Of a stretch of DNA of 64,000 nucleotides, positions 11,371 through 44,545 are shown piece after piece. The first letter of the stretch is position 1; each line of letters opens with the position of its first letter. This stretch comes from Amphiscolops sp. MND2022. Its lineage: Eukaryota. The stretch lies in contig OZ076409.1 of NCBI GenBank assembly GCA_964187785.1, forward strand, positions 23,066,001 through 23,130,000. The letters run 5' to 3'. A program made the translations under genes and the position numbers. The notes under the pieces were generated by a model that did not search any database, was not told the origin of the DNA, and was given only the letters and a program-made list of their open reading frames with translations.

Positions 11371-11439
11371 TTTGTAACGTCATCTTAAGTAAGTCATCTT
11401 AAGTAACGTCATCTTGTAAGTTCTCAGATTCAAAGAGCC

Positions 11440-13692: not shown

Positions 13693-14796
13693 GTCCCACA
13701 CTTTTAAAAGAAAACAGAGCTGCCTCAAACCCGTCGAAAACTGTTCTGGACCGTACACTCCTGTCCTTGACTGTCGTCCCGTCGTAGGCAGTTGGTAAGA
13801 GATGTTTGTCCCGGTGCTTCCATTCTTCAACATTTGTCCCGCACTCCAAAAGTGCGTGATCAGTTCGGTTCATTTTGATTTTGTATTGCAGTATAGTTTT
13901 AAAGTAAATTAGGATTTTGATGGAGACTCTTCAATCCTGAGGAAATCCGATAGGGCTTGCATGTCAAGTAGAAATTTATTGTCGTGGAGTACCAATCACC
14001 AACGAGAACGTCATTTCCTGAGTTCGTTTGGGTCGTTTCCAATTCTGACATTTTTCTGTCACAAATTTTCCATTCCCCCGGTTTTTTGAAGTTTGATTTT
14101 TTGACTAGTCTTTGATTTTAGTGCTAAGCTGGCCAGGCTAGCATTGGAGATGTCTTAATTTGATTCAGACAACATCCGGGTTTCTTTTGGAGTATTTTCA
14201 TACTTCCGAAATTAATTTGAAGCATTTTTCAACGCTTCAGGATTCTTGTGGGAGCACTTTCCAATACTTGCTGTATGAAGTAAGTAGGTTCATGCTTCCG
14301 GATTTCAGTTGAAGCATTTTTCAACGCTTCAGGATTCTTGTGGATGCACTCAAATACTTGCGGTTTGAAGTACGCTCATGCTTCCGAACTTAATTTTTGT
14401 TTCTGTTTTTGCACAAGAAATGAAACGAAATTTTGTTTTGGTTGAACTCAATGTTACTGGAAAATTGCCGGGACGATCGCCCACTAGTGAATATTTTCCT
14501 TTCTTCAACGTGCCAGCCACTATATTTGTTCCCGAATATCCACAATTTATTGAGTCAATGCTTTAATTAATACTCAGCAAGGAAAGTCAGATAAGTTGAA
14601 TTTGTGTCAGTTGTTTTCAAACTGTATACGATTGTGTAGATTGGGTTATGATTTGAACCAAAAATGTATTTTCCAGCGTTTATTCGTTCGCGTCTTGTTG
14701 TGTTTGCTTTGTAATGAGGTATTTTAGGAGTTTTCTGGGGTCGTTTGTCTGTTTTTGTGTGTAGATTCGTTTTGTATTATTGAGTTTTTGGTGTAA

Positions 14797-15195
14797 CTAA
14801 ATCATCATCATCTGTTCGTTGGATTTTCTATCAAAATTTTTCTTTTGGTGCAGTGGGTTGTTCCACTGGGCTCCCCCACTCTTTCTTGAACTAATGAGGG
14901 AGGGAGGGTGGTTGTTTTGGGTGAAAAAGCAACGGTTGAGAGTATCCAGTTTCTTTATTGCTATTGCCATTTGGTTATTTGGGTCAAACTGTGTTTTCGT
15001 TGAAGTTGATGTGTCTTGGCTTGCGTGGGACCCTGTCGTGTCGTATAAAAATTGAGCATTTTGCAAGATTTGTCTTCGGAGTTGTCGATTGGCTCCTGTC
15101 ACCATGTGATAATCCTCTTCTGAAGCTATTATTTCGTCTTCTAAGTTCAGTTCGTTTTGGTACAATGATTTGGCTGGATGTCTTAAATCTTTCAT
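14797..15195 (-). pseudogene. Putative N-terminal gag remnant reading from inside the LTR through the PBS
   Basis: ORF ...ASEEDYH|MVTGANRQ spans the LTR end and PBS; gag assignment is positional only. Confidence 0.5.
15091..15104 (-). promoter_or_regulatory. Primer binding site
   Basis: TGGTGACAGGAGCC immediately after LTR end ...ATCACA on the minus strand; cognate tRNA not assigned. Confidence 0.7.
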
Positions 15196-16289
15196 TTTTG
15201 AAACTCTGAGAGGATTATCGTCGTTTTCTGATTCTGGATTTTTGTTATTAGATGCGCGAACTCCTATAGACCTCTCATTTTTGGATCCCGAATGTCTTTT
15301 TCAATATCACTTGTCTCCTGTTTCTTCTGTTTCCGATCTCACTCAAGTGAAAAACAAGGTTTTGTTGCCGAGAAATAGTTGAATTTCTTTGCAGTTTTAT
15401 GATGAAGCAAAGTTCAATTGGTGAACAAAGTTGATGAAAATTGATTTACATGGCAGTTGGGTAGTTTCTTTTGAGAGTTACTGCTTTCAACTGAAGTTAT
15501 TTTTTGGAATGATTGGTCTAAAACTGCACTAATGGTCTCAAAATTAAAAGTATGACACTCCTTTTTACAGGTATCATACAGGGATTTGCAAAAATAGAAT
15601 TACGTCAGGAGACGTCATTCTATTTATATCTCAAGAAATATAGAGCACTAAGACCCTAGAATTCAATAAATAGCATCATACAAACGGTTATTTTAAACGC
15701 AATTTAGATTACTCTAGCAACACTGGTATTTGTAGCTAATACTGCTGAATCCACACAGTGACGAGTATACGTCACTACTCGAACCGCAGAGTGACGTATA
15801 GTGTTGTGACGTATAGTGACGAGTACTCGTCGCACCTCGAACCGTAGGATGCCGCATAGTGAACTTGACAAAAACGCATAATGACGAGTATGCGGTACTA
15901 CTCGAACCGCATAGTACCGCATAGTCACTAGCACAAAATGGTAATTAAGCCAAATTGGGCTAGACAAGAATCATTATTACGTAACATAATACTCATTAGC
16001 ACGTGTTTGCTCTACTCTAACCTGGGTTTTATGCAATCATAAGCTCTCAATTGTATGTAATGATGAATGAAATTTACGCTTCTAATACTTCAGATGTATA
16101 ACAAGCTGAAATCCGTATGAAATTTGGTTAACAAATATGAAGTTACATCACGAAAGTAAGAAGCTGGGGTATTAGTTTATAGTCCTTGTTGACCATCTAA
16201 AATTCATGAATGTCTGGAAATCGGGTTTTGCAGTTCTCGTTTTCTTAAGAATTGCCCAATGGCACCAGCACAACAGTGAGGTTGTGACA
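15105..16289 (-). repeat. 5' LTR (1185 bp)
   Basis: Only a handful of substitutions versus 12508-13692; followed directly by TGG PBS on the minus strand. Confidence 0.92.
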
Positions 16290-18074: not shown

Positions 18075-18806
18075 TGTTACGGCAACTGCTGATGTCAACA
18101 GTTTTCATTAATTTTCAACAAAGTACCAAAATTTCGTTCAAATCTGACATGCAGCCTGAACATGTTTGCGGTCAAAGACCTGTCAGAAAACAGCCTCAAA
18201 AGTGATGAGAAGCCGCCCGCGAGAACAAAAACAGCAATACCAGCAGCTAATACAGCTATTTTGACGATTTTTCACGGTATCGTGCCTATCTCCGACAAGA
18301 TTTCTCTACTTTTGTAGCAGAAACCCGTGAATCCAGATGTCTGCCTGAAGATCCCTGTGATGATCTGTGGTGCTACCAGCTCGAGCGCTGGGTATTATTT
18401 TTGCTCTTTCCACGAAGAACGGACTCAAACTGTTATAATTGATGTATTTGTGGTAGTTTAGATTGATATGCTCGAGAGCTGTCTAAATACATCTGTGCTA
18501 TAGTTCATTATTGACGACTTGTCAGATTTCCCTAAGCTATGCTTTAACTCTAATTCAGTCTGTCGGCCCCCTTTTGGAGGCTAATTAAGCAGTGGTCTTC
18601 GGCCCAAGGAAGATGCTTGTTATTCTTAGCAGTTACAGACTGGAACCAGGCCAGAGAGCACTCTATAAGACGGTTCCCCACCCTAGAACTGGCTCCCTTG
18701 GAGGTAAAATGAGCTAGGGCCGTGGAGAGCTGAGTCCCGGATCATATTCACAGTTCTAGTTCCTCCACTTCTAAGTTTCGGTTAAGCGCCAGCGCTTGTC
18801 GTTACA
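18075..18806 (+). repeat. 5' LTR (732 bp)
   Basis: TGTTACGGCAAC...CTTGTCGTTACA; roughly 90% identical by eye to 34953-35689. Confidence 0.95.
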
Positions 18807-18821
18807 TAGAAACTCATTTTT

Positions 18822-18839
18822 TGGCGACCACAGAGGGAT
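18822..18839 (+). promoter_or_regulatory. Primer binding site, complementary to a tRNA-Arg-like 3' end
   Basis: TGGCGACCACAGAGGGAT; reverse complement ends ...GTGGTCGCCA, resembling eukaryotic tRNA-Arg(TCG) 3' ends. Confidence 0.75.
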
Positions 18840-21411
18840 CTTCTTGGGAAGCTTTCCCGAGCAGTTTTTAAAAGAACTGGCCCCCTGGTGATCAGTGCCA
18901 AGCCTGTTTTGACTCTGACAAAGAAGGAGAGAGCAGATTTGTACCTTTTTTCAGCCGTATTACGTCCTACCGGAAGCCGAAATGGTGTTGAGCTAGAGAA
19001 AACCCGAAAAAATCTCGTTTTCACGTGCGAAAATGGCATTTTTAGGTGTTTTTGAGAAGAAATTGCCAAATTTCTGTGATGTGTTGTGTGCCCATCAGCG
19101 GGTATCTTTTTGCAGGTGTAGACAACCGTACCACGTGGCTACGGGTGTTTACCAGGTTTTTTAAGCTTTTTTCAGCCATTTTATGACATGCAAGAGGGTG
19201 ACTGGTGGATGGTTAGCCACGAGCCAGCGCGGCGGAGGAGGGGTCAAATCGTGTGTTGCAGACTTTCTACTCCCATTTCTCGTGGAGACGTTCTAGAGGT
19301 ATGGTTTTTGGTGGACAGCAAGTGCAAAAGTGCAAGAGTAGACAATGCTAATGGTTCAAACTGCGTGTCTCTAACTGGTCTAGATGTAGAGAAAAAGCGT
19401 GGCGAAGATGCACCCCCTGTGACCGGAAGTGTCGCTCAAATGGCTCATGGTAGCGAAAGTTTTGGAAATGCACCTTATTCGACGGGGAATTGTTGGTGCA
19501 GGTCAGTAAAATTTTTCTGCGAAGGTAACGACATCCTATGAAGTGTTTTTCTGCGAAAAAGCACTTTTGAGAAAAAACCTCATTTTTACTGTTTTTTGGT
19601 GTTTTTCTTGGTTTTGAGCACTCGTGCTCACTGAAACCAAGAGAACCTCGTGAAAAGTGTTGTAAACAGCAACTACAAGGTTCGAGAAAGCTGGTACAAG
19701 TTGCACAAAGCACCGTTCTGGCTCTTGTTTGTAGAAAAAGTGCAAATATTGTGCCAGAAAATTGCAAAAAAGTGGAAAAAGGGTCGAAAGAGTACCCAAA
19801 AACACAAATGTACACGTATGTAAAAGCATGAAAAGTCGGTGTACAGTAGTTCCTTGAGCGCTGCTAACCTACAGAGCACTAATTACAATTTCTATAGCGA
19901 ATTCAGGCAGCCTGAGGCTGATACTGTGTGCAAAACCTGCAATTTTAGGCATTGAATAGTGCATTGTGTGAAAGTCTTTGGAGTGAAACTTAATCGGCTT
20001 TGGGGAACCTGCGTATCCTCAATTTCAATTAATATAGTGAAAACTGAAAACAACGTATGGTGGTGACAACCGCATGTAAAAACTCCCATTCAGTGCTGAG
20101 AAAATTGGAAAAACTCACTGAATTGGATCAATTTTCCACAAAACCGGGCAGTCTCTGTTTTAGGGTTGGGTCACTGATTCCTGAACCCTAGCTAAAAAGT
20201 GGTTGCATTGTCGTAACTACCACTAAAATAAACGCTAGTGCCGAAAATTTGATGAGCGTATCGGTCACCAAAGTCGAGACAAGCTCTCTGACGTTTCGAT
20301 CTCAGAAAAGCGAAAAAAAGAGCCAAAAAAACCAAAACTACAAGACTGTCAGTGCCCTATACCTAACGGGCAAAACCAATTGGAGGTCTATCCCAGTGCT
20401 ACGAAAAATGGGGCAACAGGTTGGTCCCTTTTTGCCTGTCGTATCACTTTCTGAGGTGACTCCCTTAGCCAATTTGTAAAAAAAAATGCAAAAATAATGT
20501 TTTTTCGTGTGTAACGTCAATATGGGGTCGAAACCTTAAATAAACCTGCGCACTTCAATTCGACTATTTCAGTGGCATTGCTGGCACTCACTGACAAAGA
20601 CAACCAAGTTTAGTGACAATTTGTACCGTACTTGTTGAGAAAATAGCAAAAACGTGAGACCCAAGAAAGTAAGCAAAAAGTCGGGTTTTTCGCATTTTTT
20701 CCGAGTAACCCCGGTATCCTAACCAAAGGGTGGGATCAAATTGCTAGTCATCATCGTGCTTTGTGCTAATTACTACGTTGCTGCAGAGAATTTGAGCTTG
20801 CTACCATTTCCTAGTGGACTGCAATCTTGAAATTGACGTGAAAAACAGTGTATTTTGGTACATGGTGGTACCTAGGTGGAATTGTGCGGAAAGGGCGCAG
20901 CGCAAATCTGTGTTCATTTTCGTAAACCTACGTGTACCTAAAATCTGCTGGTGGTCAATTTTGGGCCTGGTACGGCGCTTCCAGTGCGCACACGAGCCAC
21001 TTGAGTGTTGTTGTGAAATTTTTGGAAAATTCAAAAATTCTTTGGAAATCTTCCTGTTGGCGCCCAAAGACAAAACTTCTTAAACTAAGTCAATTTTCTG
21101 GCCCAGTGTGCTTGTGGGAAAGTGCTGTTCAAGTTTGAACGTCCTACTAGCCTTTAAACGTGTTTCGGAAAACCTCAGACGTTGAAAAGCGTCATTTCCC
21201 TTAGGTCTTCACCGAGACGAGTAAGGAGCTACCTTCAAGGGAGGCCCCAGGTGCCTTCAGAAACCTTTTGTAAACCTCTGTTTTCTGTGTAAAAGTGTAC
21301 TGGGTGGTGATCTGCACCCTGCTGGCGCGCTCAGTGAACTAGCGGAGGAAATGGGGTTTCCGGCACTTGTCTTTACTTGTAGTTGTGTGTTCCTGGAGCT
21401 CGCTAGCGACC

Positions 21412-23137
21412 ATGGTGTGGCACCCTAGTGTCATACGCCGTCTGCGATCAGTATTTCGAGGACGTGATGATAGTTCGCTACTGCTGATTGAGTCGCTTGT
21501 CTCCACAGAGGAAGATTGTGTTGGCTCGACCCAACGTGAAAGATCCAGTAGCACCGAGGATCTGAACCTGCAACAATGGTCTTCGCATGAGTCGTCGATG
21601 GATAGTTCACGTTATTCAGGAGAAACGTCTGATGTAGTATCGCTAGAGCAACAACGCACGGAGGAGTTGGCAGCAATAGCTCCCCCCTCCGAATGTTCAG
21701 TCGTATCCGAAGCTTGGAGCAGGAGACGTACCCCGTGCGCGGAGCGTGGCCGATTCTGCTGTTTCATCCCAACGATCATCTGTCTTTAAAGCCGCAGTAC
21801 TTCGAAACCAGCTGCCGAGGTCAGACTTAAGGACTCAATGCTTACCATGCCTGATACTGGGCGCAAGCCTGCACGAGTGCAGATGAAAGGACCTCATGAC
21901 TCCAGTTCAGCCGGGCAATCCACAATCAAGGCGTGGACCCTACCACTATCTATCTGGATTCTTCTATTGATGCTGATTTGTCAAGTACCAAAGCTACTTT
22001 GCGATCTCAAACCGATGATGCCGCATATTTGTCGGCACAGACTATGTTCTCTGGACCGAGTTCCTTGTATCTGACAGCAGGTAATGAAGTGCCCTCGGTC
22101 AACCCCTGCGCGAGCAGCACTCGCAAGAAGGAGCCGGAGACCATGGATTTGTCTGTTCAAGCTACCCAAAGCAGTGACGACGCAACACGTGATCTGGAAC
22201 CGAAAGAAGACGTTGAGGTTTTCTCCCCCGAGCAATTGAAATTCACTGGCGCCATCTCAAAGGCCATGTAAGGAGTTAGCCCCCTTGCTATCTGGCAGGG
22301 ATCTGGCGCAAACGAGGCCTAGTGTGTATAGAGGCTCGGAGGACGGGTCCATCGATGGGTGGATTCTGGTAATGCGGAGATATGTGAAACGGTCAAAAAC
22401 TTCGCTGGATGATCAGGCTTGGAGCATTATTGGACACCTTGAAGGTGAAGCTCGCAACTACATCATCAATAAAGCTGAGTCTGAACGCAACACCCCAGAG
22501 AACGTAATTGAGCTGCTGTCCAGTCGCTTCGGCACCGGGTGTAATCGCATGCAGGTGCGCCAGGCGTTCCTAAGCCGCGCCCAACATAAAAAAGAAGATT
22601 GGATGCAATATTTAGATGTTTTGGAAGGTCTTCGTAGTCAAGGATTTCCACAGGAGTCCACCACTACCAAGCGCAATGAAATCCTGCAGCGCTTCATGGA
22701 ATCGCCCTAAGGGAAATCAACAACCTTATGACCCTAGGCTAGCTATGAGATCTCGAACTCATCCTTTTGTAGTTTTGCAGCCTGAAAAGATGGTATTACC
22801 ACAAAGGGTATTACTCCCACCTCCCACACCACCTTTGAATGCACTGGCAGCTCCTGCCGTCGTCACTCCTGCCAGAGCACTGGTGGGTGATTGCTTCAAT
22901 TGTGGACAAAACAGGCTTTTCGCTGGCAAGTGTCCCAATCGAGATCAGGCTCGTAAGCCTGGTGGTGCCCAGCCCAACTTGGATGAGGCAGTGAAAGACA
23001 CCATGGAAGACTATGCTGAAGGTGTAGCCGGAAAATGTTCCGGAGTACAGTTCTGTGTGAACTGTGTGATGATGGATCACGAGGCATCGCAGTGTATGGA
23101 AAACCCTGTGAGCAATGACTTTGCTTTTAGTCGGTAG
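21412..23137 (+). pseudogene. gag: gag (long Ser-rich N-terminus, capsid, two zinc knuckles), frameshifted
   Basis: Capsid-like PSVYRGSEDGSIDGW...HLEGEARNYI...LLSSRFG...QHKKEDWMQYL; CFNCGQNRLFAGKC and CVNCVMMDHEASQC knuckles. Confidence 0.85.
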
Positions 23138-23622
23138 GCCAAGACTGACGCAGCCGGTATTGCCACTCAAACTATGCCTGCCGAAGATGATCGAGTATTA
23201 GAGCTGCGTCCTGCAGAGCTACCCGCTTTGAATCCTCCTCTAACTGTTACTTGTGGTGAGAAGCAAGTACGAACAAGTCTGGAACCGACTACATTCGACC
23301 GCTTGGCCGGACTCTCATATCTGTTCATTTGGTGTTGGCAGCCGAGAAAAAACAACGTCCCAACTTGACAATACGTGAATTGTGGTTGGAGCTAGTTGCT
23401 AATCCTGCCTACAAGCAAATCGATATGAGACGACCCGACGAATGGTGCGGGGAGGGTGAAACAAAAACTTTGTCCTCATATGCCTCTGTGCCCGTAAACG
23501 CTACTTTGATGGTGTCGACATGACATTTGATGCCTGTGTGGTCATGGACATGTTCCCTCCTGGAATACGCCTAGGTCCTCAAAAACTGAAATGTTACAAT
23601 ATCATTCGACAAGAACCTACTG

Positions 23623-23960
23623 GTGAAGCCCGTATTGGCGAGAGCTGCGCCCATACCTTTGCGAGGACTGGTGGACACCGGTTCCGGTGTATCTATTCTG
23701 ACGTTCTCAGCTTTCAACAGGTTTGCAGTGCACACTGGTGCTGCACTCCGTCCCTGCCGTATCGATCTGTATGCTGCCAATGGGAAAACCATTAAGACGC
23801 TCGGGATGGTAGAGCGTGTGCGCTTCCAGTTGGGCGACTACGAATTGCAGACCAACTGTGTGATGGTGGATGATGCAATGGGAGTCGAGGACTTCCTGCT
23901 GGGGCGAATCTTGCTTCGGACCTTTCAAGTCTCGGTTGATTTGACGGCCATGAGGATAGT
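23623..23960 (+). pseudogene. pol: Aspartic protease (retropepsin)
   Basis: LVDTGSGVS active site, AANG flap, DFLLGRILL motif. Confidence 0.9.
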
Positions 23961-24583
23961 GGTGCAAGCGCCCGTGAAGCCCGTATGGCTTTACGCCCAT
24001 ACTCATGTTGGTGACTCTGATACTGCAATCCTAGTAATTCTAGCTCAGGAAGTTGTTTTACAACGTTTCCAGAGCTAGAGCTACCGTGGTCACCAAAGAT
24101 CTGGAATCTCTTATTTTTCAGACTGTGGCGCTTAACGCCTCCCTGTCTGACATGTCTTTTCGTAATGTCGTCTTTTCAGAGGACAATATGGCCACTGTTG
24201 GCGGAACAGACTCACTGTATGTCAACCTAATTAACCTGACAAGCAACCCACAGCGTGTGCGGTGTGTCACGCCGCTGGGCACCGTAGTGCCGGTATCTTT
24301 AGTGTAACAGGCTGTGCCCCAGGAGGTGGATGGCATTCCCGAAAAAAGCAAGAAAACTGAAGCCAACAAAGGTCGCGCAAATTTTGTTTACAAGATGTAT
24401 AATCAAATGAATCTATCAACTGAATCTGAGTTAACGTTTTCATCCGAATTTACGTCTTCGTCTTCCACTGATCCGAGTGAGATTCGCAGGCACACCGATT
24501 CGGAGCTGATGGCTCCGATTTCTGGACCAGACTTTCAGTTACAGGAAATTAAGGACTTGTGGGGCGCTAGCGCCTGTTAGTCT

Positions 24584-25550
24584 TTGGGAAAAACACTTAT
24601 TGAATTCGATGATTTGTTCATGAAGCATAAAGCTGACATCGGTCGGTGCACAATCGCCAAACATCCGGTTGAGGTAGAGCCTGGGGCTATACCGCATCGT
24701 GAAGGTGCACGGATGATTTCTCCTGAGAAGGCCGAACGCGCCAATCAAGAAGTGCGTAACCTCTTTACCTTGAGGTTGATACAGCCTTCGCTGTCCCCTT
24801 GGGCGAGTGACATTGTGATGGTTAAAAAGAAAAAATGGGGAGTTGCGCTTCAGCTGCGACTTCCACCTCTTGAATGACGTAACCATCAAAGATGCCTATC
24901 CTTTGCCTCGCATAGATGAGAGCCTGGCACCACTAGGCAAAGCCGAGATCTACACTAGTACTGATCATGCCTGGACATTTTGGAAAATTTCTGTGAGGAA
25001 GGCCGATCGCAACACGACGGCTTTTGCCTGTGAACTAGGTCTCTTCGAATGGCGACGGATGCCTTTCGGAATGTGCAATGTTTCTGCCACTTTCCAGCGA
25101 GCGATAGCTAAAATTGTTAATCGAGAAGGCGGCATGGTAATGGCTTACAACGACGATTTTGTCATTGCCACCGAAACTGTGTAGGATCACATGGTGCGCT
25201 TGCGGGAGGTTTTCGAAAGCCTCGGCGAGGCCGGCTTCAAAATGCGAGTGGTCAAGTGTGATTTCATGAAGTCCAAAATCAAGTATTTGGGACGATTTGT
25301 CTCCGCGGAAGGAGTGAAACCTGATGCGAAGGCGATAGCAAAACTGCACGATTGGAAAACTCCTCGCAACAAGACGGAAATGCAGAGTTTCTTCGGCTTC
25401 GCCAACAACTATTGCGAGTTCATTCCGTGGCACGCCAAATTGGTTGCACCCTTGCATGCCGTCATTGGCCTCAAGGTCACTTTTGCATGGGGTCCCGAGC
25501 AGCGAAAGGCCTTCAATGAGATTGAGAACGCTTTGATCGAGGCGACTGCG
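24584..25550 (+). pseudogene. pol: Reverse transcriptase and connection, decayed
   Basis: IQPSLSPWAS, DAYPLPRIDE, TAFACELGLFEWRRMPFG, AYNDD (YxDD), KYLGRFVS, FFGFANNY. Confidence 0.95.
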
Positions 25551-25950
25551 TTAGCGCAACCTGACTCCGAAGGCGAATTTCTTTTAGAAACTGATGCCAG
25601 CGCAATGATCATTTCAGGCACTCTGCACCAGTGGCAAGGTCTTCCGGATAGCGTCGCCGTCGCCCCATAGTGTATGGTAGCACAAAACTGACCACTACTC
25701 AAGCAAAGTATGGAGCCTCCAAGCTGGAAATGTATGCCGCTTACCATTTCATCGTGAAAAACTATAGTTATCATTGTCCTCAAAAGTTCACCCTGTGGGT
25801 GGATAACCAAGCACTGTCATGGTTAAAAACTTATTTCTCTGATCAAGCACTGGTTGGCAGAGGGATCATGACACTCGACAAGTACCATTTCCAGGTGGAA
25901 CTTCACCCACGAACTCAGCATCGCAACCCCGATGGATTGAGTAAACGAAC
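25551..25950 (+). pseudogene. pol: RNase H
   Basis: FLLETDAS, YGASKLEMYA, FTLWVDNQAL, HRNPDGLSK. Confidence 0.9.
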
Positions 25951-26639
25951 TAATGAGTATCGGTGGCGAGAAAATCAGCTTGCACAGCTACCACCCACTG
26001 GCGAGCGTTGGAACTTCCTTTCACCGGATGAGTTCGACAAACTGCCTTTTGCACCGTGGTTTGACGTTCAGGGCAGAGTCATTCCAAATCACCCTGAACT
26101 ACCCGAACACTTGCAGAACATGGAGCGTGCAGCTCCCAACCCCGTACGTCGTGTTTTTCGCCCAACACAGTAAGCGGGACAAGCAGGCGAAGGCGTTAGC
26201 TGCGCCTTTACCGCCCCTGCCCTCACCCGAACTGCAAGTGAATGAAGATTTTCATCCAAATTATCCAGAAGAGTGGATAGATGTCACCCAGGAGGCCAGC
26301 GAAGATTATCTGTTGCTGACTCATGCTGCCAATGTTCCCTCGCAGACAATATACTCTGTGACTGAAGCCAGTATCAAAACGATACAAGGTGCTCCCTCAG
26401 GAGTGTGTGATTCAGTCATGGCCCTTCGAGATATTGACAGGGAGCACCATGAACCTGCCAACAGCGTGCATGGAATCAAGGATTTGGTTATAGCCCAAAA
26501 CCGTGATGTCCATGTGCTGGCCAATAAAAAGCTGGTCCTGAACGAACCTATAGACAACGACATTTTTCCTGAGGACGCGCGGTAGTTTGCACGCAATTAC
26601 TTCCGACAAAAGAAGTGACTCTTATATATTAACAAGAAC

Positions 26640-27730
26640 GTGGTTCTTTGTGTGCAATGTCCACCTACCCAGCGTCCATTGCACAAACGTCCGTGCATGA
26701 GTGTCATGCCACAGCTATATCAGCATGAAATCTTGTTCCGTGTTCATGATGCCATGGGACACCAAGAAACTTCCAAGGTCGTTGCTGGCATTCAAGAACG
26801 CCATACTTGGTCTTGCCTTCGCTGCTGCGTGGACAAGTACGTAGGTCAATGTCTCACGTGCCAGCAAGTGCGTGCTGAGCCTGGTAACGTCAGGTTTCTT
26901 CTGAAGATCATCCAAAGTGGATACTTCAATGAACTACTTCAATATCACCACCTGAGAGTTTGCCCCTCAGATAGTAACAACACGGGCATTCTGGTAATCA
27001 TTGATCACTTCTCAAAATTTGCTCAGGCTGTTCCTTGGAGCCATAACGACTACGATGCTGTAACGACCTCGAGGCTGTTATTGCAGAAATGCTTTGCGCG
27101 TCATGGCACGCCAACCCGCATGCAGTCAGACAATGCTCACAACTTGACAGCGGAGGTGTCTAACGAGTTTTTGAAAGCGTCTCATGTAACTAAGGTGACC
27201 TCCACTGCGGGGCATCCACGAACTCAAGGTCTGGTGGAACGCCAGAATCGCACACTTTTAACCTTCTTACGTGTATTCTGCTCATGTCGCATGCGCGACT
27301 GGGACCAGTGTCTTGATGAGGTTATGGGTGCCTATGATTCCACAAGGCACGCTATCACTCGCTTTTTGCCATATATGATCACAAGTGGCATAGAAAAAAC
27401 CATTTGCCTCTTATTTCTGTATCCCGAGTTCGCAACTCATTCTTTCGAATCACATGAAGTACGCCAACAAGAAATCCACGACTTGGTGCGCCGTAGTAAG
27501 CGCCAACCTCAGTTACGTCAAAAATTGAAATACGCTGCGACATTCAAGCACGGTCCTACCAGCTTGGCGACTTGGTGTGGGTCTTCTGCCGCTATGTGCC
27601 GCAGAGGGGCTCGCCGAAATTGATGCGTGCCTGGCGTGGACCAGATAAAGTTGTGCAGGTATTTCAGGATGGTCGTGTTTATGTCCTTGATACCGGACAA
27701 AAGGTTCACTTCGAACGCCTCAAGCCGCAC
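26640..27730 (+). pseudogene. pol: Integrase (HHCC, DDE core, GPY/F-like C-terminus)
   Basis: HDAMGH...CLTCQ; LVIIDHFSKF; SDNAHN; HPRTQGLVERQNRTL; frameshifted KLMRAWRGPDKV...VHFERLKP. Confidence 0.95.
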
Positions 27731-28860
27731 TAAAGCGAGCCTTTGGAATTTGCCACGGCGCAAGCAAATGGCGATGACATTGTAGTTCTGGTGAACCCAG
27801 AGCTGGAGCGTTCCGTCGATGTTGTCGACGACGATATATCTCAGTCTTCTTATGAAACTGAGTAATTACTTTCAGAGGCATCTGATGTGGCCTTGCCTTC
27901 GCGAGGACGTCACTTAATGGACACTCGCCTGCGCACGAGACTCCGTACAGGCGGTTCATGCATGCACTATCAACAATTCCATTAGTCTACCTCTGGTACA
28001 GATGACGAGTTGTCTGATGTCATGTTGCCGATTCCTCCTAATACTATCGATGCTGATCACCTGGAGCCTGTGGCCCCTATCCCTTCGTTGGATCAGTCGA
28101 TATCACCTACACGTCAACTACCGCAAATATTCTCGGACCATGAACGTGCACGCTCCCTGTCACCCCAACTAACAGCGTCTGAGAAAGAACCTTCGTTGCT
28201 GGGTACGTCAGCACCCTTGGTAACCAATCCATCACTGACGGATTTCCTCAGCAACTATCCTATTTGGCCTACCGCCACCCAACTGCCTCTCTTGTCCGTC
28301 AGCACAGACAGCGATGACCCACACCCCTCGGCCCCTGTCATTACCTCCGCATTGTCGGTAGCAGGGACCTCTCCATCTCCTAAAGGGAAGAAGGGGAGAC
28401 CACCCACAATCCAAAAGAGACGACTAGTTCAGCCGAGAGCAAGAACGAGGAAGAAAAAGACGCCGAGGAAGGTAGCAGAATCTGATAGACCAACTGCATC
28501 GGAAGCTCCCAGGTACCAATTGCGGAGTAAACGCCGACCGCGTTACAAATGTGGAACTTGTGGACTGCGGGATTGCGTTTGTCTATTGGCTGTGAGTGAG
28601 AACCGGGGGTTCCCACTGGAGCCCGGGGAGTTCTTCCGGAAGGGAGAGAAGCAGAAAGTCTGGTGCATCGCCTCACAGTCCGAGCCGAGAAGACATTCTG
28701 CTGTTGAGCGATTTGGAGACCACCCACTGGACACAATCCTTCAGAAGTTAATGTTACCCGGAGCTGCGAAAGTCCCGTGTCCTAGGTTTAAGGAGTGGTC
28801 CAGTGACGGAAAAAGATTGGAGATCACCCTTGGCTACTGTGATGCCTCCAGTGCCAAGCA
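27731..28860 (+). pseudogene. Post-integrase extension: acidic/Pro-Ser-rich linker, AT-hook-like KKGRP, basic tract, CxxC-xxxx-CxC cluster
   Basis: ORF 28010-28927: PKGKKGRPP, RYQLRSKRRPRYKCGTCGLRDCVC. Confidence 0.6.
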
Positions 28861-29887
28861 AGTTTGTCTTTGGACCGTTCAACTTTCAGCGCGAGCCTGT
28901 ACAAATGGCTCGTTGCATCACTGCTGACCTGTTATGTGACAAGTGTGGAGTACACGTAGAGCCTGGTGGGGTCTACAGTCCGGCCCCGCATTGTGGCTGC
29001 TGATCACTGCTCCACGAGTGGAAGCTATGGTGGATCCGTCACACCTGTTGTCCTGCTTGGAGAGCCTAAAGACTCTCACGACTGCGAATCTCATATTCTG
29101 TTTCCACATTGTAGACTGGTATCGGGATAAGGTGAAGTTTGCTTGGTTAGAGCTGATAATCACCTGCTTTACCAATTACCCTCGTATCCGTTTGTTGGAC
29201 GAGTGAACCCATACCTTTGAAAGTCCACTTTCCCCAATGGCCGCCCTGGGCACTTTGAATCTCTGGACAAAGACTAACAGTGACAATCGAGCAATGCCGC
29301 GCTCGGTGTGACAAGACTTAGCCAAAATCCAAGGACGCACACCTCGTGTGTGTCTCCCTTCTGACAATGGGCCTGGACGTGAGATTTTCTATCCCGGAGC
29401 CCTGTATCCCAATTTGGTGGATTATATCTCCTATGATGTAACGGATTTTCTGCAGGCGGAGGGCGACATACCGTTGGCCTGCCCCGCCGATCTCGAAACT
29501 AAGTCTGCCGCCCTACGGTACATTCTGAGAGGTTGTGGGACGGAGCGTATATTCTCGCTACGAACACAAGTGGGTGAAGTCCTAACTATCCCACATGAAA
29601 TCACTGACAATTCAACTCAAAGTATCCATTTGTTGGTAGTCCGAGCAAAACAGCATACGCCGCTGATAGCCCACGACTATCTGCACTGCATGGCACAGCT
29701 AACAGCGCCTAGCAGACAAGGGATCTACGACAGTCCATTTGCCTATCATGGACCCAGAAGGGCCTATTCGCTGGTCAACCGGTATCATGCTGTGATGAAA
29801 TTGTTCGCGGGTACTGACATCCGCGTAGTCCTACACAACCGCGTGTATGTGTCCATACTCAGCGTAGGACTAGATAAGTCATTATGA
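28860..29887 (+). pseudogene. Two tandem degenerate TARG1/Poa1p-like macrodomains at the pol C-terminus
   Basis: Copy 1 FVFG..MARCITADL..PGGV..LWLLIT..LLSCLESLK..DKVKF..LIITCF..IRLL; copy 2 ISYDVTDF..LACPADL..QVGEV..IHLLVVR..(shifted)KGSTTVHLPIMD..MKLFAGTDIRVVLH; both follow the OARD1/TARG1 motif pattern by eye. Confidence 0.65.
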
Positions 29888-30175
29888 ACTCTTTTTTCCC
29901 TAGTCTTGAAGTAGCCCTTTTATTTACCTTAATCTATTTTTCTAGATTCAATGGGAGAGCCTTGAGCCCTCTTATGTAGTTGGCTAAAACACTTTTAAAG
30001 TCGTTTTTTTGTTCTCAGTTAGTGTTAGTTTTCTTTAAGTTTAGCACCCTCTACCTACAATGTTCCCTTATGGAACTCAATTCATGTACATTCACCTTGG
30101 TGTTGAGCCTGAAGCTCTCGCCGAAAACCACTTTATTCTGAACCTAACGTAAGCTTTTTTAAGACCTATGAGTTT

Positions 30176-33100
30176 ATGGCATTTTACCCCAATAATTCAA
30201 TGCCTCCTCCAGTGCCTGCCGGCACTCCAAGAGCCCAAGAAACTGTGCGAGGGCAGCGGGTTAATCGAGCGCAATACGTTGGGGAGCGCCTTAGGAACGG
30301 TATTCCACCTGTAGCCGTGGCTTTACTCACTCAGTTAGAGACTCAGCAGACCCTGCCAGGTATGTCTCTTTCCATTTTTGCAGAGGTGGATGGCTACCGG
30401 CGCACCATAGTTTGCCAAAATAATAGCTGGGACGGGTATGATCTGACCCACCAGTTCTTGGACGAAAGGTCCATTGCAGCTTACGGACCTAGCCAGGGCA
30501 CCACCTTCGAACAGGAAGCATCCTTGCGGATGATGCCCGCAAACTTGACTACACCACAGTTGCCGCCTCTACAGATGGTATCCTGTCAGCCAGTAGTACC
30601 TAAGCCAACACCAATGACGCCAGATAGAGCGCCGCATATGATTATGCAAACAACGTGCCGAGCACCAACGTCTGACCGGAAGCCTTCGGGGTACCGTCTG
30701 CCTCCTCTGCTGAATCCGGATCTCACTGGTCAAAATCCTGGAGCAGTGATAGTGGCGCTGCAAGCCGAATCCAACTATCCAGAACCGTCAGACTCCCGGC
30801 AAGCCGTGCAACAACGACTACCATGTCTAGCTGCGTACTTGCGAACCGCCGCTCAGCCCTCGGGCTGTGAACCACAAGCAACACCAGTTGAATCCTTACC
30901 CATGGAAGCTGAAACCACAGCTGGCATCAGTAGGAACGCAACAGCATGTCCTAGCGACGAAGCAGGACAAAAAAATATGACCCAAGAAACCACCGCATCC
31001 ACATCCGCAGGCATGGTGACCGAGAGCCCTACTAGTTGTCCTCCACCAAACAAACAACGACCTAAAGCACCGCAACTGACGCTGAAGAGTGTGGTGATCC
31101 CAAAGCCATAGTTTTGAGTTGGACACCGAGGTGTAGCTGCAGCGCAAATGTCAATGAGAGAAGCTGTAGAAAAGTATGGAACCCCTGAAGCTGGCTCTAG
31201 TACGAGCTCTGTGCACTCGGGCACAGCTACACCCGCAACCGCGGTACCTCCCGCTGAAACAATCGAGGCTGAGGAACCGCGCCCACCAGCATTCTTGCCA
31301 CCTTCTGCGGATTTGTCTGGCGCCATAGTGGCTAGCAATTCAAAGCGCATCTGGGAAGCAGCGGAGTTCTTCCACGCCCACATGTATGCCACAAACAGAG
31401 GAGTGCCTCCCAAATAGGCTGATCAAAATATGGTGAACCGGTACAGTATCGTTGCCCACGTCACTCGTACGCTCCGTGCTCGCAATGTTGACATGTCAGA
31501 ACAAGCCTGGGAGCAAAGCGTTGTTGAATGACTACCCGGAACACCTCACAACTATTTAGCCGCCTTGCAACACAATTAACCCGAACAGTTCCCTGCGAGG
31601 TACTCATTGCGAGAAGGAGAAACTTGGGAGGGAAATGCCCGATATTGACGTCATTGAAGCCCCTGTTAAAGAGTGTATTGCAACGTGCCCGTTACTGCTT
31701 GGTGGTAGACTCAACTTGCAGAAGTGATTTGCAGATTGACAACTTGATGCCGGATGTGATGATGATGACCATGCCACTAGCACGGATCCCTGAAATGGCA
31801 GAAATGGTTGTGGCGATATTCGCGCCAGAACTCACCGGTTTTCTGAAGGAACCACCACCACAACGTATGATAATCGCTAATGTACTGGATCACATGGCTT
31901 GTGAAGGGCTGCTGATAGAACTGAACGCAGTCATGGACGACACAAGAAATCCCGATGGTGCTGGCGGTTTACCACAGCTGGTACCTGACGCGTTGGAGAC
32001 AGCCGTAGGGATCCTTCGGGGACGATTGGAAGCATCCGTGCTCTTCGTGTCGCCGCCTGGATTCATGAATTGGGAGAGGATTCTCCAGAAGTTCGTTTAT
32101 CTCTTGATGGAGGTGTGCAATGCTCGCCTTATTGACTTTGCCTTATCTGTGCCCCGATCTTGCGAGTGGGTGCTGGTGACCTGTGCCCTGCTAGACTTTC
32201 TTACCACGCCTACATAGCAGCCAACTCAAGTGTGGCACAGTGCGTGGATCGCTCTGGCAACGCACAGTTGACTTTATATGACGCTATCCACTATGACCAA
32301 GGTATGCCCAAGGAATGGGTCGGATGACTTTCGACCAGCATGGTCGCCAGCTGACGAAAGAAGCAACTGCCGTTGAACGAGAAGCAATACGCCGTCACAA
32401 TTGGTTAGTACGAAACTCCACCGAAGTGCCTATCCGTGAAGAGCTCACTGAAATGGTGAAGCAAATTGCCGCTTGGCCCGCTGCGCGTGCAGTCGAGAGG
32501 ACTATTCCACAGATTCGCTTTGCATCTGGGACAGAGCCAGTAAAACGTCCTGTGGGACTGCGCCATTATTTTGCTACTGAATCTACCAACCTGAAAGCAG
32601 AAGTTAACGCCTGTGCGATCACCTATGCACACTTGTACCAAGGCCGCTTTTTTGATCGAACCCTGTCAGATGTAGCATGTGAGCTCATTCTTCCCCTCGA
32701 GACCGTTTGCACTAGCCTTGGCCTGGGCTGGAATTTGGATGAACTTGCGACTGAGTTTGCACTCTCCGACTTTCAAGCGAATAAGCTAATAGAAAGCCTC
32801 GGAGAAATGACCATTGGAGACGTGCTAGCGCTCGCGGTAGCGGTAGGTCCAGCCAAGATCGTGGCAGGTCCACTGGCCCTGCTGATTGAAATAGGCGTGT
32901 CCTGCTACTTAATCATGTTCTACAGTTACCTGATTCTAGCTCAAGGACAGCTTCATAGCTTGGCTCGCTGGGGTCATATTTTGTATATGAAAGACCTGCA
33001 TGACTACTCAGCTCAACTAGAACGTCTGCGTGCATCGATGCAGCACTGGTTGTATTCGACCTTGGTTTACGCATCAGGATTGTTCGTTAATGTTGACCAG

Positions 33101-34173
33101 GTGCAGCCTCTGCATGACCCCGATCGCCAGTTGCCCTGAGAAACTGCTGGGTTTCCTATGCCGCAGCAGCTTGCTGACCTGACACTAGCCGAAGTAGAAG
33201 ACTTCATTCTCGCAATGGCGTCCGTCTTGGCTCCCATCTTTGGTGCCATTGGAGTATCTTGTTATCCGACCAAGCCGATTGCAATAGCACTACGCGTGCA
33301 TCCGGTATCTATATGCACTTATCTGCAAGGAAGTCCGCCATTGACGTATCCCAGAGTTCTAGACACCGTCATGAGTGGAGAAATGCCTCAGGCTTACACC
33401 ACCATCAAAACAGAGAAACAGTTGGAAGAAAATTTAATGGGTGTTGACGCTCTATATTCATTCAAGTGTATCACGTTCCCTAACCGGTACTGGAAAAAAC
33501 CGGAAGGTGAGCTCGTGCACGCCCTGTAGGATGAGCGCCTGCTTGTCTAAATCATCAACTATAGCATTTGGACTTGGCCATAGTCCCTGGCTGGATTGAA
33601 GGTGTTGGCTGGATAGAAGAACCCTGTATGGCAGCCTCAAGGCAAGATGACCATTTCTGGCGACATGCCATTTGTGATGCACGACGTTGTCAATACCGTG
33701 CTAGGCCCTCGAGCCCGTGCAGAATGGGAGGAGCATTGCCTAGAGATTGAGATTGCCAGCTTCCTCAATTGGAAAAAAGCTTGCGAGCTCTGGAACCAGC
33801 CAGGCTGGGTATCCAAGCGTATAGCCTTGGAAGTCTACAGCAGATCACAAACCGCTCGGCAACAGGCGTTCTAACGAGAGCGATGTCTCTAGATCAACAA
33901 GTGACCAACGCTTCGTCAGCGCATGAACTAGAGGTTGAACCAATGAGTCCACGGATCACCCATGAGCCGACTGGAGAGCATGCAGCGGAGTTAACTCCAA
34001 ACACCGCTCTGATCCAACCAATTGCCGATTTGACTTTGCGTGAAGTTGTTTCTGATACCGAAACAGTAACCACTGTAGTGTTGCCCAAGAGAAGAGCTTC
34101 TTTCTCCACGCAAAACGATGAGACAACTGATGAAACCACCAAGGAAAGAGCTCGACGCAATTCAGCTCAGTAA
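30176..34173 (+). pseudogene. Accessory ORF3 (~1300 codons, disrupted) in env position; Pro-rich N-terminus, SGNH-hydrolase-like segment, unknown helical C-terminal part
   Basis: Chain of long + strand ORFs 30176-31111, 31148-31417, 31528-32217, 32315-33139, 33158-33529, 33647-33874, 33769-34173 inside the LTRs, with coding-like GC content. Confidence 0.75.
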
Positions 34174-34952: not shown

Positions 34953-35689
34953 TGTAACGGCAACTGCTGATGTCAACAGTTTTCATCATTTTTCAACAAA
35001 GAACCAAAACTTCGTTCAAATCTAACGTGGCAACCTGAACATGTTTGCGGTCAAAGACCTGCCAGAAAAACAGCCTCAAAAGTGATGAGAAGCCGCCCGC
35101 GAGAACAAAAACAGCAATACCAGCTTCTAATGCAGCTCTTCTGACGATTTTTCACGGTATTGTGCCTATCTTCGACACGATTCCTCCACTTTTGTAGCAG
35201 ACACCCGTGAATCCAGATGTTTGCCTGAAGATCCCTGTGGTGTTCTGTGGTGCTACCAGCTCGAGCGCTGGATATTTCTTTTGATCTCCTCATGAAGAAC
35301 GGGCTCAAACTGTTATATTTGATGTATTTGTTGTAGTTTAGATTGATATGCTCGAGAGCTGTATAAATACCAGCTGTGCTATTGATCATTATTGGCGATT
35401 TGTTAGATTTCCCTAAGCTATGGTTTAACTCGAATTCAATCTTTCGGTCCCCTTTTTAGAGTCTAAGTAAGCAGTGGTCTTTAGCCCAAGGAAGATGCCT
35501 GTTATTCGTAGCAGTTACAGACTGGGACCAGGCCAGAGAGCATCCTATAAGACGGTTCCCACACCCTGGGACTTCCTCCCTTGGAGGCAAAATGAGCTAG
35601 GGCCGTGGAGATCTAAGTCCCGGATCATATTCACAGTTCTAGTTCTTCCACTTCTAAGTTTTGGTTAAGCGCCAGCGCTTGTCGTTACA
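34953..35689 (+). repeat. 3' LTR (737 bp)
   Basis: TGTAACGGCAAC...CTTGTCGTTACA; TATAAATA at ~35362. Confidence 0.95.
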
Positions 35690-36508: not shown

Positions 36509-37192
36509 TTTTTAGTCGGCGCTTCATGAAGTGAAACGCGACTATTATAGTGTCTCTTTTTTTTCTATCCACACGAACTGACCAAAATAGTTGTTAAAAG
36601 TTCTACAAAATATTATGGTGTCAAATTGCACCATTTGGCCTAGCGAACTGGACCAAAATGGTTTTACCTGTTTTTCCGCGTAACATACCATACCGGGAGA
36701 GACCAAAGAGTCCCCCCTTTCAATTTTTTTCGGCACTGCGAGACATTTTTTTCGGAATTTTTTTTTCGAAATTTTTTCTCCTCAAAGGGTCCCCCCGTAT
36801 TTTTTTGATGTTTTGCGACAGAATGGATGTTGGAAAATCCCAAAGGGTTCCTCCTTTCAGTTTTTTCGGCATTATGAGATTTTTTCCCGAAAATAAAAAA
36901 AAATTTTCTTCAATTTTTTCATGCTTTGCGACAGAATGGATGTTGAAAAACCTCAAAGGGTCCCCCTTTCAGTTTTTCGGCATTGTGAGACGTTAGCGCG
37001 CCAGGGGCTCGCGCTAGCGAGCCCCGGCGCGCCACTCGGTCCAATTTTTTTAGTATGTAATTTTTTCAAAAAAAAAATTTCGAAAAATTTTCGATTTTCG
37101 ACTTCTGTAAAAGAATACTTGACACTTGGAAGTCTTTTTGCTATTTTTGAGCCTTGGATATGGCGCCGACTTGGGCCGGTCCCGGCTTGTTT
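36509..37192 (+). mobile_element. DINE-1/HINE-like element (inverted copy of 2091-2770)
   Basis: TTTT-AGTCGGCGC...GCGACT partial IR at 5'; GCGCCGACT + hairpin GCCGGTCCCGGC + TTGTTT at 3'. Confidence 0.8.
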
Positions 37193-43169: not shown

Positions 43170-44545
43170 CGGGATTAATGTCTAAATTGAAAACAGGAAT
43201 AAGATCTAATTCAAACCATTTTTCGGGATTAACGTTCAAAGTTTTAGACGTTATTCACGTTTTTTTAGACGTTATTCCCGCTTTTCAGACGTTATTCTTG
43301 TTTTAAAAATTGAATTTTTGCAAGTAAAAATATCAATTTCTGAATGTCTTCACACAAAATGGCTGGCACAAAAATGAGGTGGCAAGGGAATCATTGTCTA
43401 CGGTACCCTGAATTCGAACAACAAAAAATCAGAAGATTTTATACTTTTCCCACCTAATGTGGAGCATATTCGGTGTATGCACGCTCGCCCTCAACGTCGC
43501 AAAGACCAGCTACCGCTACGATCGCTTCGCGATCTCCGTTCCCGCTAGGTCTTTGCTCCTGTTCGACCTCGCTTAGCAAGATTGGAACATAGGTGGCCTC
43601 AAGAGGCGGCGGGGCACTAGAGGAAATGGGGTCATATCCGAGACATGTTTTATACTTTGAATCACTTCAGAGCATTAGATCTTGATTGACCGGCATTTTC
43701 TCAATTTTAGACGTTATTCCCAATAATTAGACGTTATTTTTGGATATTTTAGGCGTTTTTCCCGATTTTAAACGTTATTCCTGTTTTTCAGACGTATTTC
43801 GACAATTTTTTTGTCTTTAAGACGTTTTTCTGTAATTTAGACGTTATTCCCGTTTTTCAGACGTACTTTGACACTTTTTCTGTATTTCAGACGTTTTTCT
43901 GTAATTAAGACGTTATTCCCGTTTTTAGTCGGCGCTTTTCTAGTGAAAAGTGCCCGACTCTTACAGTGGCTAGTCTTGTTTTCTTTTTCTTTTCAACAAT
44001 CTCACTCTGATTGGGCCACTTTTCTCACAATCGGAACTGCTAAAACTACCACCAAAAGGCCAAGTCCGGTCAGCGGAAAGTAGTTCAAAAGGGTCCCCCT
44101 ATTCAATTTTTACCATTTTAGTTTAACCTTCAAAACCGGACGAGACTAAGAGGTCCCCCTTTCGATTTTTTTCGGCATTGTGCGACTTTTTCTCGAAAAG
44201 TTTTTAATGTCTCAAAAGGGTCCCCCTTTCGAGTTTTTTGATATTTTGCAACAAAATATATGTTCTAAAGCCCAAGTGTCCCTCCTTTTACATTTTTCGG
44301 CACTATGTGACATTTTCGGAAAAGAAAAAATTCAAAAATTTCGAGTTTTTTATTTAAAAAAAGACGTTTGCGCTTTTTGAGCCTTAGATACAGCGCCGAC
44401 TTTAGACGTTCCCGTCTTGTTCTGACGTAATTTGACAATTTGTCTGTAACTTAGACGTTTTCTTGTGATTGATACGTCATTCGCGTTTCCAGGTCTAGAC
44501 GTTGTTCCTCTATTTAGACGTTATTCCCGTGTTTTTAGAAGTTAG
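43170..44545. mobile_element. Foldback/MITE-like element with TTAGACGTTATTCCC subrepeats and shared core; hosts a HINE
   Basis: Many AGACGTTATTCC repeats; core at 43448-43645; boundaries approximate. Confidence 0.6.
43922..44421 (+). mobile_element. HINE-like element, second subfamily
   Basis: TTTTTAGTCGGCGC...CCCGACT 5' end; GCGCCGACT + hairpin AGACGTTCCCGTCT + TGTT 3' end; inserted in a T-run. Confidence 0.7.

What the first reader, a model, noticed from the sequence alone, without database searches (positions are those of the whole stretch)
31690..32220. SGNH/GDSL-hydrolase-like domain within the env-position ORF3
Motifs in order resemble the SGNH blocks: YCLVVDS (block I GDS), MTMPLARI (block II), MIIANVLD (block III GxND), VLFVSPPG, and after a frameshift GDLCPARLSYHAY (block V DxxHP..GY, His apparently lost). 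Known: SGNH esterase folds occur in ORF1 of CR1/L2-type LINEs, and an inactive form in Oskar binds RNA. I see no signal peptide, furin site or TM anchor typical of env. Inference: a non-env accessory protein, possibly lipid- or RNA-binding. The T-rich gap at 29888-30175 could allow a spliced or subgenomic mRNA.
Basis: inference. Interest (0 to 1): 0.7.

Follow-up and report, generated by a model that had tools for sequence, protein, structure and literature searches.

The report
Retrotransposon third gene with altered esterase
A large, high-copy jumping gene carries, where a viral envelope gene would sit, a 1,400-residue protein of no known family whose middle folds like an esterase but has swapped its catalytic histidine for arginine across the whole family, so it more likely binds something than cuts it.

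Summary
They lie in ORF3 (30176-34173, broken here) of a decayed 17.6-kb Ty3/gypsy LTR element. ORF3 is not a one-copy capture: intact 1426-1493-aa relatives form clusters of up to 657 members, with subfamilies down to 25-35% identity. Pfam, NCBIfam, PDB-sequence and Atlas searches name no family for it. An AlphaFold model of the domain from a natural relative (pLDDT 81) retrieves mostly SGNH folds (about 46 of 50 rows, but best Z only 7.8). The family's Arg falls on the catalytic-His site in 10 of 14 reference structures and within one residue in all 14. Ser is kept (129 of 136 proteins); the His site holds Arg in 137 of 152 and His in 1. So this is an SGNH-fold domain without the canonical triad, most likely a ligand-binding accessory module. 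A rewired enzyme using an invariant block-III Asp-His is not excluded. SGNH domains in LTR ORF3s are known (bdelloid Vesta1, catalytically intact), so this is a new variant of a known kind. Lipid or RNA binding and splicing remain untested.

The parts
18075..18806 (+). 5' LTR (TG...CA, 732 nt)
   Evidence: 90.5% identical to the 3' LTR over 737 columns; 38 transitions, 27 transversions; flanks match only in part as a target-site duplication
18822..18839 (+). Primer-binding-site-like sequence (begins TGG), 15 nt after the LTR end
   Evidence: sequence read directly; tRNA-Arg priming is recalled, not tested
21900..23137 (+). Broken gag region
   Evidence: PNMA (gag-like) Pfam hit E 3e-4, below the curated cut-off, in 22240-22707; zinc-knuckle-like motif in the next piece
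23590..27700 (+). Broken pol: protease, RT, RNase H, integrase in Ty3/gypsy order
   Evidence: Pfam gag-asp_proteas E 6e-6, RVT_1 E 5e-14, RT_RNaseH_2 E 1e-11, RT_RNaseH E 7e-9, Integrase_H2C2 E 2e-9, rve E 3e-7
27700..29887 (+). About 2.2 kb of broken coding-like sequence after integrase, with Cys-rich motifs; pol extension or extra ORF, unresolved
   Evidence: translation; no significant Pfam hit
29888..30175 (+). T-rich non-coding gap before ORF3, with acceptor-like sites
   Evidence: 39.9% T; 4 of the 12 YAG sites preceded by 9 or more T in 16 nt (of 435 YAG in the element's interior) lie in these 288 nt; branch-point-like CTAAC at 30144
30176..34173 (+). ORF3, broken by stops, frameshifts (near 31650, 32150, 32305, 33872) and a deletion near 33443-33490; about 1430 aa in intact relatives
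   Evidence: tblastn of P0030, P0037, P0065: starts at residue 1 of P0030 and P0037, ends at their last residue, 47-65% identity; stops listed
31690..32265 (+). SGNH-fold domain lacking the canonical triad, split by a frameshift
   Evidence: profile hits; model of relative P0118; fold searches; register check; residue counts
34953..35689 (+). 3' LTR (TG...CA)

Best explanation
ORF3 is a large cytosolic accessory protein of a high-copy Ty3/gypsy family, not an envelope protein. Its middle (about residues 510-705 of 1426) is an SGNH-fold domain, probably taken from the pool of esterases that retroelements exchange. It has kept the block-I Ser but carries Arg at the catalytic-His site, has no fixed acid at the triad position and no canonically placed oxyanion Gly or Asn. 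It most likely no longer hydrolyses esters. Instead the old active-site pocket, now lined by two conserved Arg, would bind an anionic ligand (phospholipid head group, acyl carboxylate or RNA phosphate) and help place the element's particles or RNA on membranes or in granules. Shown: element anatomy, family size, residue pattern. Supported but moderate: the fold. Inferred: loss of catalysis, kind of ligand, role, and separate expression from the T-rich gap. The window's own copy is dead.
For: Domain model pLDDT 81, pTM 0.80. Wide structural search: 17 of 50 rows are SGNH by title or by Table 1 of PMC10792757, about 29 more by my recall, 4 are clearly other folds; best Z 7.8 (3hp4, rmsd 3.2, 135 aligned), Oskar 5a4a Z 6.8 (rmsd 4.1, 148 aligned). 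BFVD top row is an SGNH protein (prob 0.98, E 0.035), and 10 of 50 rows are named SGNH, GDSL or acylhydrolase. Counting back from alignment ends, the family's Arg lands on the His site in 10 of 14 entries with published numbering and within one residue in the other 4; Ser lands on the nucleophile site for TesA and Oskar (numbering). Block I to block II spacing is 22 residues, as in the ZfL2-1 retroelement esterase. Counts over 192 domain hits: Ser 129 of 136; His site Arg 137 of 152, His 1 (Arg in 16 of 22 representatives under 60% identity); upstream Arg 144 of 153; acid site variable. Precedents: the ZfL2-1 esterase binds anionic lipids even with active-site mutations (PMC3905857, passages); Oskar is an RNA-binding SGNH domain lacking the catalytic residues (PMC10792757, passages and Table 2). 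No hydrophobic 19-mer above 1.5 in the first 890 residues, and a furin-type motif only within the last 8 residues of 2 of 3 full-length proteins.
Against: No structural match reaches Z 8 in the wide search, the range the tool calls common, and Foldseek gives none at E <= 0.001. Residues 1-29 of the model, which hold the block-I strand, have pLDDT under 50, and most best alignments lay the second strand on the targets' first strand; Ser is in register in only 2 of 4 checkable cases. Profile-profile comparison with 42 bacterial SGNH domains is not significant: score 21.1, E 0.013, probability 3%; block-shuffled queries averaged 18.1 and reached 25.4. The domain is not basic, which weakens simple charge-driven membrane or RNA binding. 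Keeping the Ser and an invariant block-III Asp-His is not explained by a dead enzyme. ORF3's link to the element is seen at this one locus only.
Confidence: 0.55

Rival explanations
1. The domain is a rewired, active serine hydrolase or acyltransferase. The block-I Ser is still the nucleophile, the general base has moved to the conserved Asp-His of block III, and the Arg at the old His site binds an anionic substrate.
For: Ser 129 of 136, block-III Asp 143 of 144, His 138 of 144 (13 of 15 divergent representatives), Asn 140 of 144. Blocks I and III are neighbours in the fold, and SGNH classes with relocated Asp/His exist (AlgJ, AlgX, PatB1; PMC10792757 Table 2). Oskar lost the Ser (same table); this family did not.
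Against: The block-III Asp has a structural role in ordinary SGNH proteins (PMC10792757, passages). The oxyanion Gly site is Leu in 140 of 147. Two of 15 divergent representatives lack the His. The model does not place the Ser strand, so the geometry could not be checked.
Confidence: 0.2
2. The domain is some other alpha/beta fold, and the SGNH likeness is a chance motif match on a common parallel sheet.
For: All Z under 8 in the wide search, with an enolase-family chain third at Z 7.6; no Pfam, NCBIfam, PDB-sequence or Atlas hit; profile-profile score within the shuffled range; first strand unplaced.
Against: SGNH chains fill about 46 of 50 rows and span the whole domain; two independent models (and 50/59) both retrieve them; the His-site register is exact in 10 of 14 and within one in all. 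Receiver-domain and enolase control profiles score lower (15.9 and 13.0 against 21.1).
Confidence: 0.13
3. ORF3 is a non-canonical envelope-like protein for cell-to-cell spread: the SGNH domain acts on or binds surface O-acyl sugars or lipids, as in viral haemagglutinin-esterases, and the hydrophobic helices downstream insert into membranes.
For: Env position; two hydrophobic stretches in 3 of 3 full-length proteins (KD up to 2.3); an SGNH esterase domain occurs in the HEF1 glycoprotein (PMC10792757, section 2.1); about 1200 residues of ORF3 have no confident model (mean pLDDT 38).
Against: Polar N-termini without a signal-peptide-like stretch, only 17-20 Cys in about 1430 aa, no internal furin motif. 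No named envelope glycoprotein among the 50 BFVD rows for the domain (18 rows unnamed). The hydrophobic peaks are weak in the second subfamily (1.5-1.7).
Confidence: 0.12

Closest known systems
Vesta1 Ty3/gypsy LTR retrotransposons of bdelloid rotifers with a GDSL esterase/lipase ORF3 (Rodriguez, Kenefick and Arkhipova 2017, PMC5408684; passages and results 3.1-3.4 read)
   Same: SGNH/GDSL domain in ORF3 downstream of pol, in place of env; gypsy domain order.
   Different: Vesta1 ORF3 amplicons are 1.3 kb with all invariant residues intact, and full-length copies are scarce. Here ORF3 is about 4.3 kb and multi-domain, the His site is Arg family-wide, and clusters hold hundreds of members. Homology between the two ORF3s was not tested (no Vesta sequence in hand).
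GDSL derivatives of Athena-L Penelope-like elements (Terminons) (PMC5408684, passage)
   Same: Retroelement-borne SGNH domain lacking catalytic residues.
   Different: Different retroelement class; grouped with PC-esterases in that paper; which residues are lost was not seen in the text read.
ZfL2-1 ORF1p esterase of L2/CR1/RTEX LINEs (PDB 4C1B; PMC3905857 passages; PMC10792757 Table 2)
   Same: Same block I to II spacing (22) and a Pro at the same place in block II; retroelement accessory SGNH domain with proposed membrane targeting.
   Different: Full Ser-His-Asp triad, active, basic membrane-facing surface, gag-position ORF1 of a non-LTR element. 4C1B is not among the rows shown.
OSK domain of Drosophila Oskar (PDB 5A4A)
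   Same: SGNH fold without the triad; Z 6.8, rmsd 4.1, 148 aligned, both ends in register.
   Different: Host gene; it has lost Ser as well as His (Asp and Phe at those sites), while this family keeps Ser and has Arg; 9% identity.
Ngaro (tyrosine-recombinase) retrotransposons with an SGNH ORF (10.1101/2021.08.05.455354, passages)
   Same: Extra 3' ORF with an SGNH domain of unproven function.
   Different: DIRS-order elements with split direct repeats; domain detected by standard searches.

Membership tests
SGNH hydrolase superfamily (fold) | Three-layer alpha/beta fold with blocks I, II, III, V in order | tested here: met
   Met with moderate strength: about 46 of 50 rows SGNH-type, best Z 7.8; block V register exact in 10 of 14. 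First strand unplaced in the model.
SGNH hydrolase (canonical enzyme) | Block I nucleophile Ser after Asp | tested here: met
   Asp 131 of 136, Ser 129 of 136; the Gly before Asp is a hydrophobic residue; register exact for TesA and Oskar, off by 3-4 for two others.
SGNH hydrolase (canonical enzyme) | Block II oxyanion Gly | tested here: not met
   Leu in 140 of 147 at the site by ZfL2-1 register; some members of the superfamily also lack this Gly.
SGNH hydrolase (canonical enzyme) | Block III oxyanion Asn in GxND | tested here: inconclusive
   An Asn is nearly invariant (140 of 144) but sits two residues before the canonical site by one register; hhalign gives another register with Cys there.
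SGNH hydrolase (canonical enzyme) | Block V catalytic His and acid (DxxH) | tested here: not met
   His site: Arg 137 of 152, His 1; acid site variable (Gly 63, Glu 41, Asn 15, Asp 13 of 150).
SGNH hydrolase (canonical enzyme) | Ester hydrolysis | not testable with these tools
   Needs an assay.
Ty3/gypsy (Metaviridae-type) LTR retrotransposon | Two TG...CA LTRs; gag, then PR-RT-RH-IN | tested here: met
   The clade within Ty3/gypsy was not determined.
Env fusion glycoprotein | Signal peptide, internal furin site, C-terminal TM anchor | tested here: not met
   Hydropathy and motif scan of 3 full-length relatives; simple scales only, no dedicated predictor.
Env fusion glycoprotein | Homology or fold match to a viral fusion protein | tested here: inconclusive
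   No Pfam or PDB-sequence hit for ORF3; only the roughly 200-aa domain has a usable model, the rest was not searchable by fold.
Vesta1-type GDSL ORF3 | Homology with bdelloid Vesta1/Athena GDSL ORFs, intact catalytic residues | tested here: not met
   Catalytic His absent; direct homology not tested, no such sequence appeared.

The most novel reading that the evidence does not exclude
ORF3 defines an undescribed class of giant non-env accessory protein in a very successful Ty3/gypsy lineage. Its SGNH domain is a rewired serine enzyme (Ser from block I, Asp-His from block III, Arg pocket at the old His site) joined to about 600 residues of conserved helical sequence with no family match, and it is made from its own spliced or trans-spliced mRNA to remodel or dock onto membranes for particle traffic.
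Probability: 0.15. Interest if true: 0.75.

Novelty: new variant of a known kind. Interest (0 to 1): 0.45.

Why it matters
Why retroelements of several classes keep picking up SGNH domains is an open question (enzyme or binding module; PMC3905857, PMC5408684). A family that has kept the fold and the Ser across subfamilies only 25-35% identical while fixing Arg at the His site is a natural test: it implies that canonical hydrolysis is dispensable, or that the site was rebuilt. The protein is missed by Pfam, NCBIfam and the Atlas yet has hundreds of copies per cluster, so it is a sizeable unannotated part of its host genome. The basic arrangement, SGNH in an LTR ORF3, is already published, which limits the surprise.

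Tried and rejected
Sequence-level naming failed: Pfam gave no hit for 4 long relatives and 5 window pieces of ORF3 and nothing coherent for 55 alignment members; NCBIfam nothing significant for 9 proteins; PDB sequences nothing at E <= 10; Atlas one unrelated row at 0.75 and one blank. The 886-aa core model was too poor (pLDDT 38) to search beyond the SGNH part. hhalign against home-made SGNH profiles was not above shuffled controls. No relative in viral contigs or JGI metagenome contigs. No fused form among proteins of 2131-5000 aa (weak evidence). No RNA holder was listed, so splicing was not tested and no reads were laid. No whole genome is held for the window, so copy number, full-length copies and dN/dS could not be measured. 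The ZfL2-1 esterase is not listed in the fold-search rows, which neither supports nor excludes kinship. No complex prediction was run, as no binding pair is claimed. Earlier-findings look-ups by place and sequence were blank. Rejected: host gene captured in one copy; His loss as decay of this copy only. Literature searches found no description of this family; subscription papers and Repbase are not covered, and supplements and figure alignments of PMC5408684 were not seen.

Full report
Context. The window is eukaryotic-looking, repeat-rich DNA of about 37% GC with a 50% GC island at about 21-34 kb. The island lies inside an LTR element: LTRs at 18075-18806 and 34953-35689, both TG...CA, 90.5% identical, so the insertion is old. 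[quoted passage not shown] After integrase come about 2.2 kb of unexplained coding-like sequence, a T-rich gap (29888-30175) and ORF3. No genome is held for the window. The host is not established; an acoel worm is a guess from memory of a flanking repeat.

Observation. Every motif is at the stated place and in order, and the frame changes near 32150 before the block V-like motif. A domain profile built from relatives hits only the two window pieces that carry these motifs, of 1614 pieces (E 2.4e-81 and 3.2e-14). The gap is 39.9% T, the highest in the coding interior, and holds 4 of the 12 strongest acceptor-like YAG sites of 435, plus a branch-like CTAAC. That fits spliced, trans-spliced or separately promoted expression but does not show it.

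ORF3 is a large, old, high-copy family. The 229-aa window piece found 73 proteins of 402-2000 aa, all labelled ENA, none named or with Pfam domains. Full-length forms are 1426-1493 aa. The five clusters looked up hold 581, 657, 491, 237 and 79 members; 13 of the 70 listed members other than the representatives are 1400 aa or longer, the rest shorter, as expected for a decaying transposon family. The window's ORF3 (30176-34173) matches P0030 and P0037 end to end at 47-65%. It is broken by stops, four frameshifts and a deletion. A profile search of 1.84 billion representatives gave 536 hits at E <= 0.001 (best 150 listed), with subfamilies down to 25-35% identity. Between the two main subfamilies the sequence is conserved over about residues 1-300 (26-40% per 50-residue window) and 350-1280 (20-62%), with an unalignable Pro/Ser/Thr/Gln-rich linker and tail. 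'A host gene captured in one copy' is therefore rejected. That ORF3 rides in the element is seen directly only at this locus; for relatives it is inferred.

Fold. Sequence searches name nothing. An 886-aa core model was poor (pLDDT 38), though its one ordered region already drew SGNH chains. A 243-aa natural relative (P0118) with 55 aligned sequences gave pLDDT 81, pTM 0.80, an alpha/beta pattern, and residues 1-29 under 50. Against 48,161 chains, 17 of the 50 rows shown are SGNH by title or by Table 1 of PMC10792757, about 29 more by my recall (some uncertain), and 4 are other folds. The best Z is 7.8 (3hp4, rmsd 3.2, 135 aligned), none reaches 8, and an enolase-family chain is third at 7.6. 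The second look gave a designed scaffold at Z 8.0 and then SGNH proteins, among them E. coli TesA (Z 6.9, rmsd 3.8, 153 aligned). Foldseek found nothing at E <= 0.001 in PDB or BFVD, where the top row is an SGNH protein (E 0.035). The scores are middling, so I checked register with the block numbering of PMC10792757 Table 2. Counting back from each alignment's end, and assuming no gap there, the family's Arg falls on the catalytic-His position in 10 of 14 entries (13 distinct proteins) and one residue off in 4. Counting from the start, the Ser falls on the nucleophile position for TesA and Oskar and is 3-4 off for two others. Block I to II spacing equals that of the ZfL2-1 esterase (22 residues). 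Against this, most trimmed alignments lay the model's second strand on the targets' first, so the model probably mis-slots the first strand. A profile-profile test with 42 bacterial SGNH domains put the same Arg on the His but scored 21.1 (E 0.013), above receiver-domain (15.9) and enolase (13.0) controls yet within the range of 40 block-shuffled queries (mean 18.1, maximum 25.4). I put the SGNH fold at about 0.85.

Active site. Over 192 domain hits from 293 proteins (n differs by column): block I Asp 131 of 136, Ser 129 of 136; block II Gly site Leu 140 of 147; block III Asn 140 of 144, Asp 143 of 144, His 138 of 144; acid site variable; His site Arg 137 of 152, Cys 5, His 1; next Pro 141 of 152; an upstream Arg 144 of 153. 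Among 26 representatives under 60% identity, Arg holds in 16 of 22 and Ser in 6 of 8; many of these are decayed fragments. This copy has Cys at the His site. The His loss is thus a family trait, not decay. The domain is charge-neutral in 5 of 5 subfamily members checked.

Env test. In 3 full-length proteins the N-termini are polar, no 19-residue window exceeds hydropathy 1.5 before residue 890, furin-type motifs occur only at the extreme end (2 of 3), and two moderately hydrophobic stretches lie 400-500 residues from the end. These are simple scans. The roughly 1200 residues outside the domain have no usable model, so an unusual membrane role is not excluded.

Mechanism. Most likely (0.55): a cytosolic accessory protein whose SGNH pocket has become a binding site for an anionic ligand, used to place particles or RNA. 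Precedents are lipid binding by the ZfL2-1 esterase independent of its active site (PMC3905857, passages) and RNA-binding Oskar (PMC10792757, passages). Rival (0.2): a rewired enzyme with the base supplied by block III; the kept Ser and the nearly invariant Asp-His argue for it, and relocated Asp/His classes exist. Further rivals: not SGNH (0.13); env-like (0.12).

Comparison and novelty. A GDSL/SGNH ORF3 in place of env is described for bdelloid Vesta1, with intact catalytic residues and 1.3-kb amplicons, and residue-deficient GDSL derivatives for Athena-L (PMC5408684; passages and results 3.1-3.4). Ngaro elements carry an SGNH ORF (10.1101/2021.08.05.455354, passages). A review of giant transposons (PMC6431247, passages) and one acoel genome paper (PMC9911081, passages) mention no such ORF3 in the passages seen. 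Nine searches (listings only unless named above) found no description of this family; Repbase and subscription papers are outside the library. Earlier notes of this scan report SGNH cargo in copia and Mutator elements of other genomes (unchecked, not used as support). The domain works like a retroelement SGNH accessory module and belongs to the fold superfamily, but it fails the test for a canonical SGNH enzyme. Verdict: new variant of a known kind; interest 0.45.

Noticed in passing
window 57100-63700 (- strand), related copy at 51410-52207: Seven head-to-tail copies of a unit of about 947 bp, 90-97% alike, each reading like the C-terminal end of a LINE ORF2 with a Cys-rich tip (family likeness recalled; Pfam blank): a tandemly amplified LINE 3' end.
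   Followed up: partly
window 27700-29887: About 2.2 kb of broken coding-like sequence between integrase and ORF3, with a Pro/Ser-rich stretch, a basic patch and two Cys-rich motifs; no family match. Possibly a long pol extension or a further ORF.
   Followed up: partly
window 18807-21900: Unusually long (3.1 kb) leader between the 5' LTR and gag; the primer-binding-like site lies 15 nt from the LTR end rather than next to it.
   Followed up: no
window 11407-11817: Fragment with an integrase zinc-binding domain (E 9e-5): remnant of another LTR element.
   Followed up: no
window 2091-2770, 36509-37192, 44152-44199: Copies of an interspersed, internally palindromic (MITE-like) repeat, 93-97% alike in opposite orientation. 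From memory it resembles repeats of acoel worm genomes; the host lineage is an untested guess.
   Followed up: no
window 6088-9684 and 12508-15925: Two local duplications, about 2.0 kb and 2.6 kb apart, 95-99% alike.
   Followed up: no
P0075 and P0100; P0061 and P0092: Members of ORF3 subfamilies only about 42% identical are listed with the same longest-contig length, so several subfamilies probably co-occur in one assembly.
   Followed up: no
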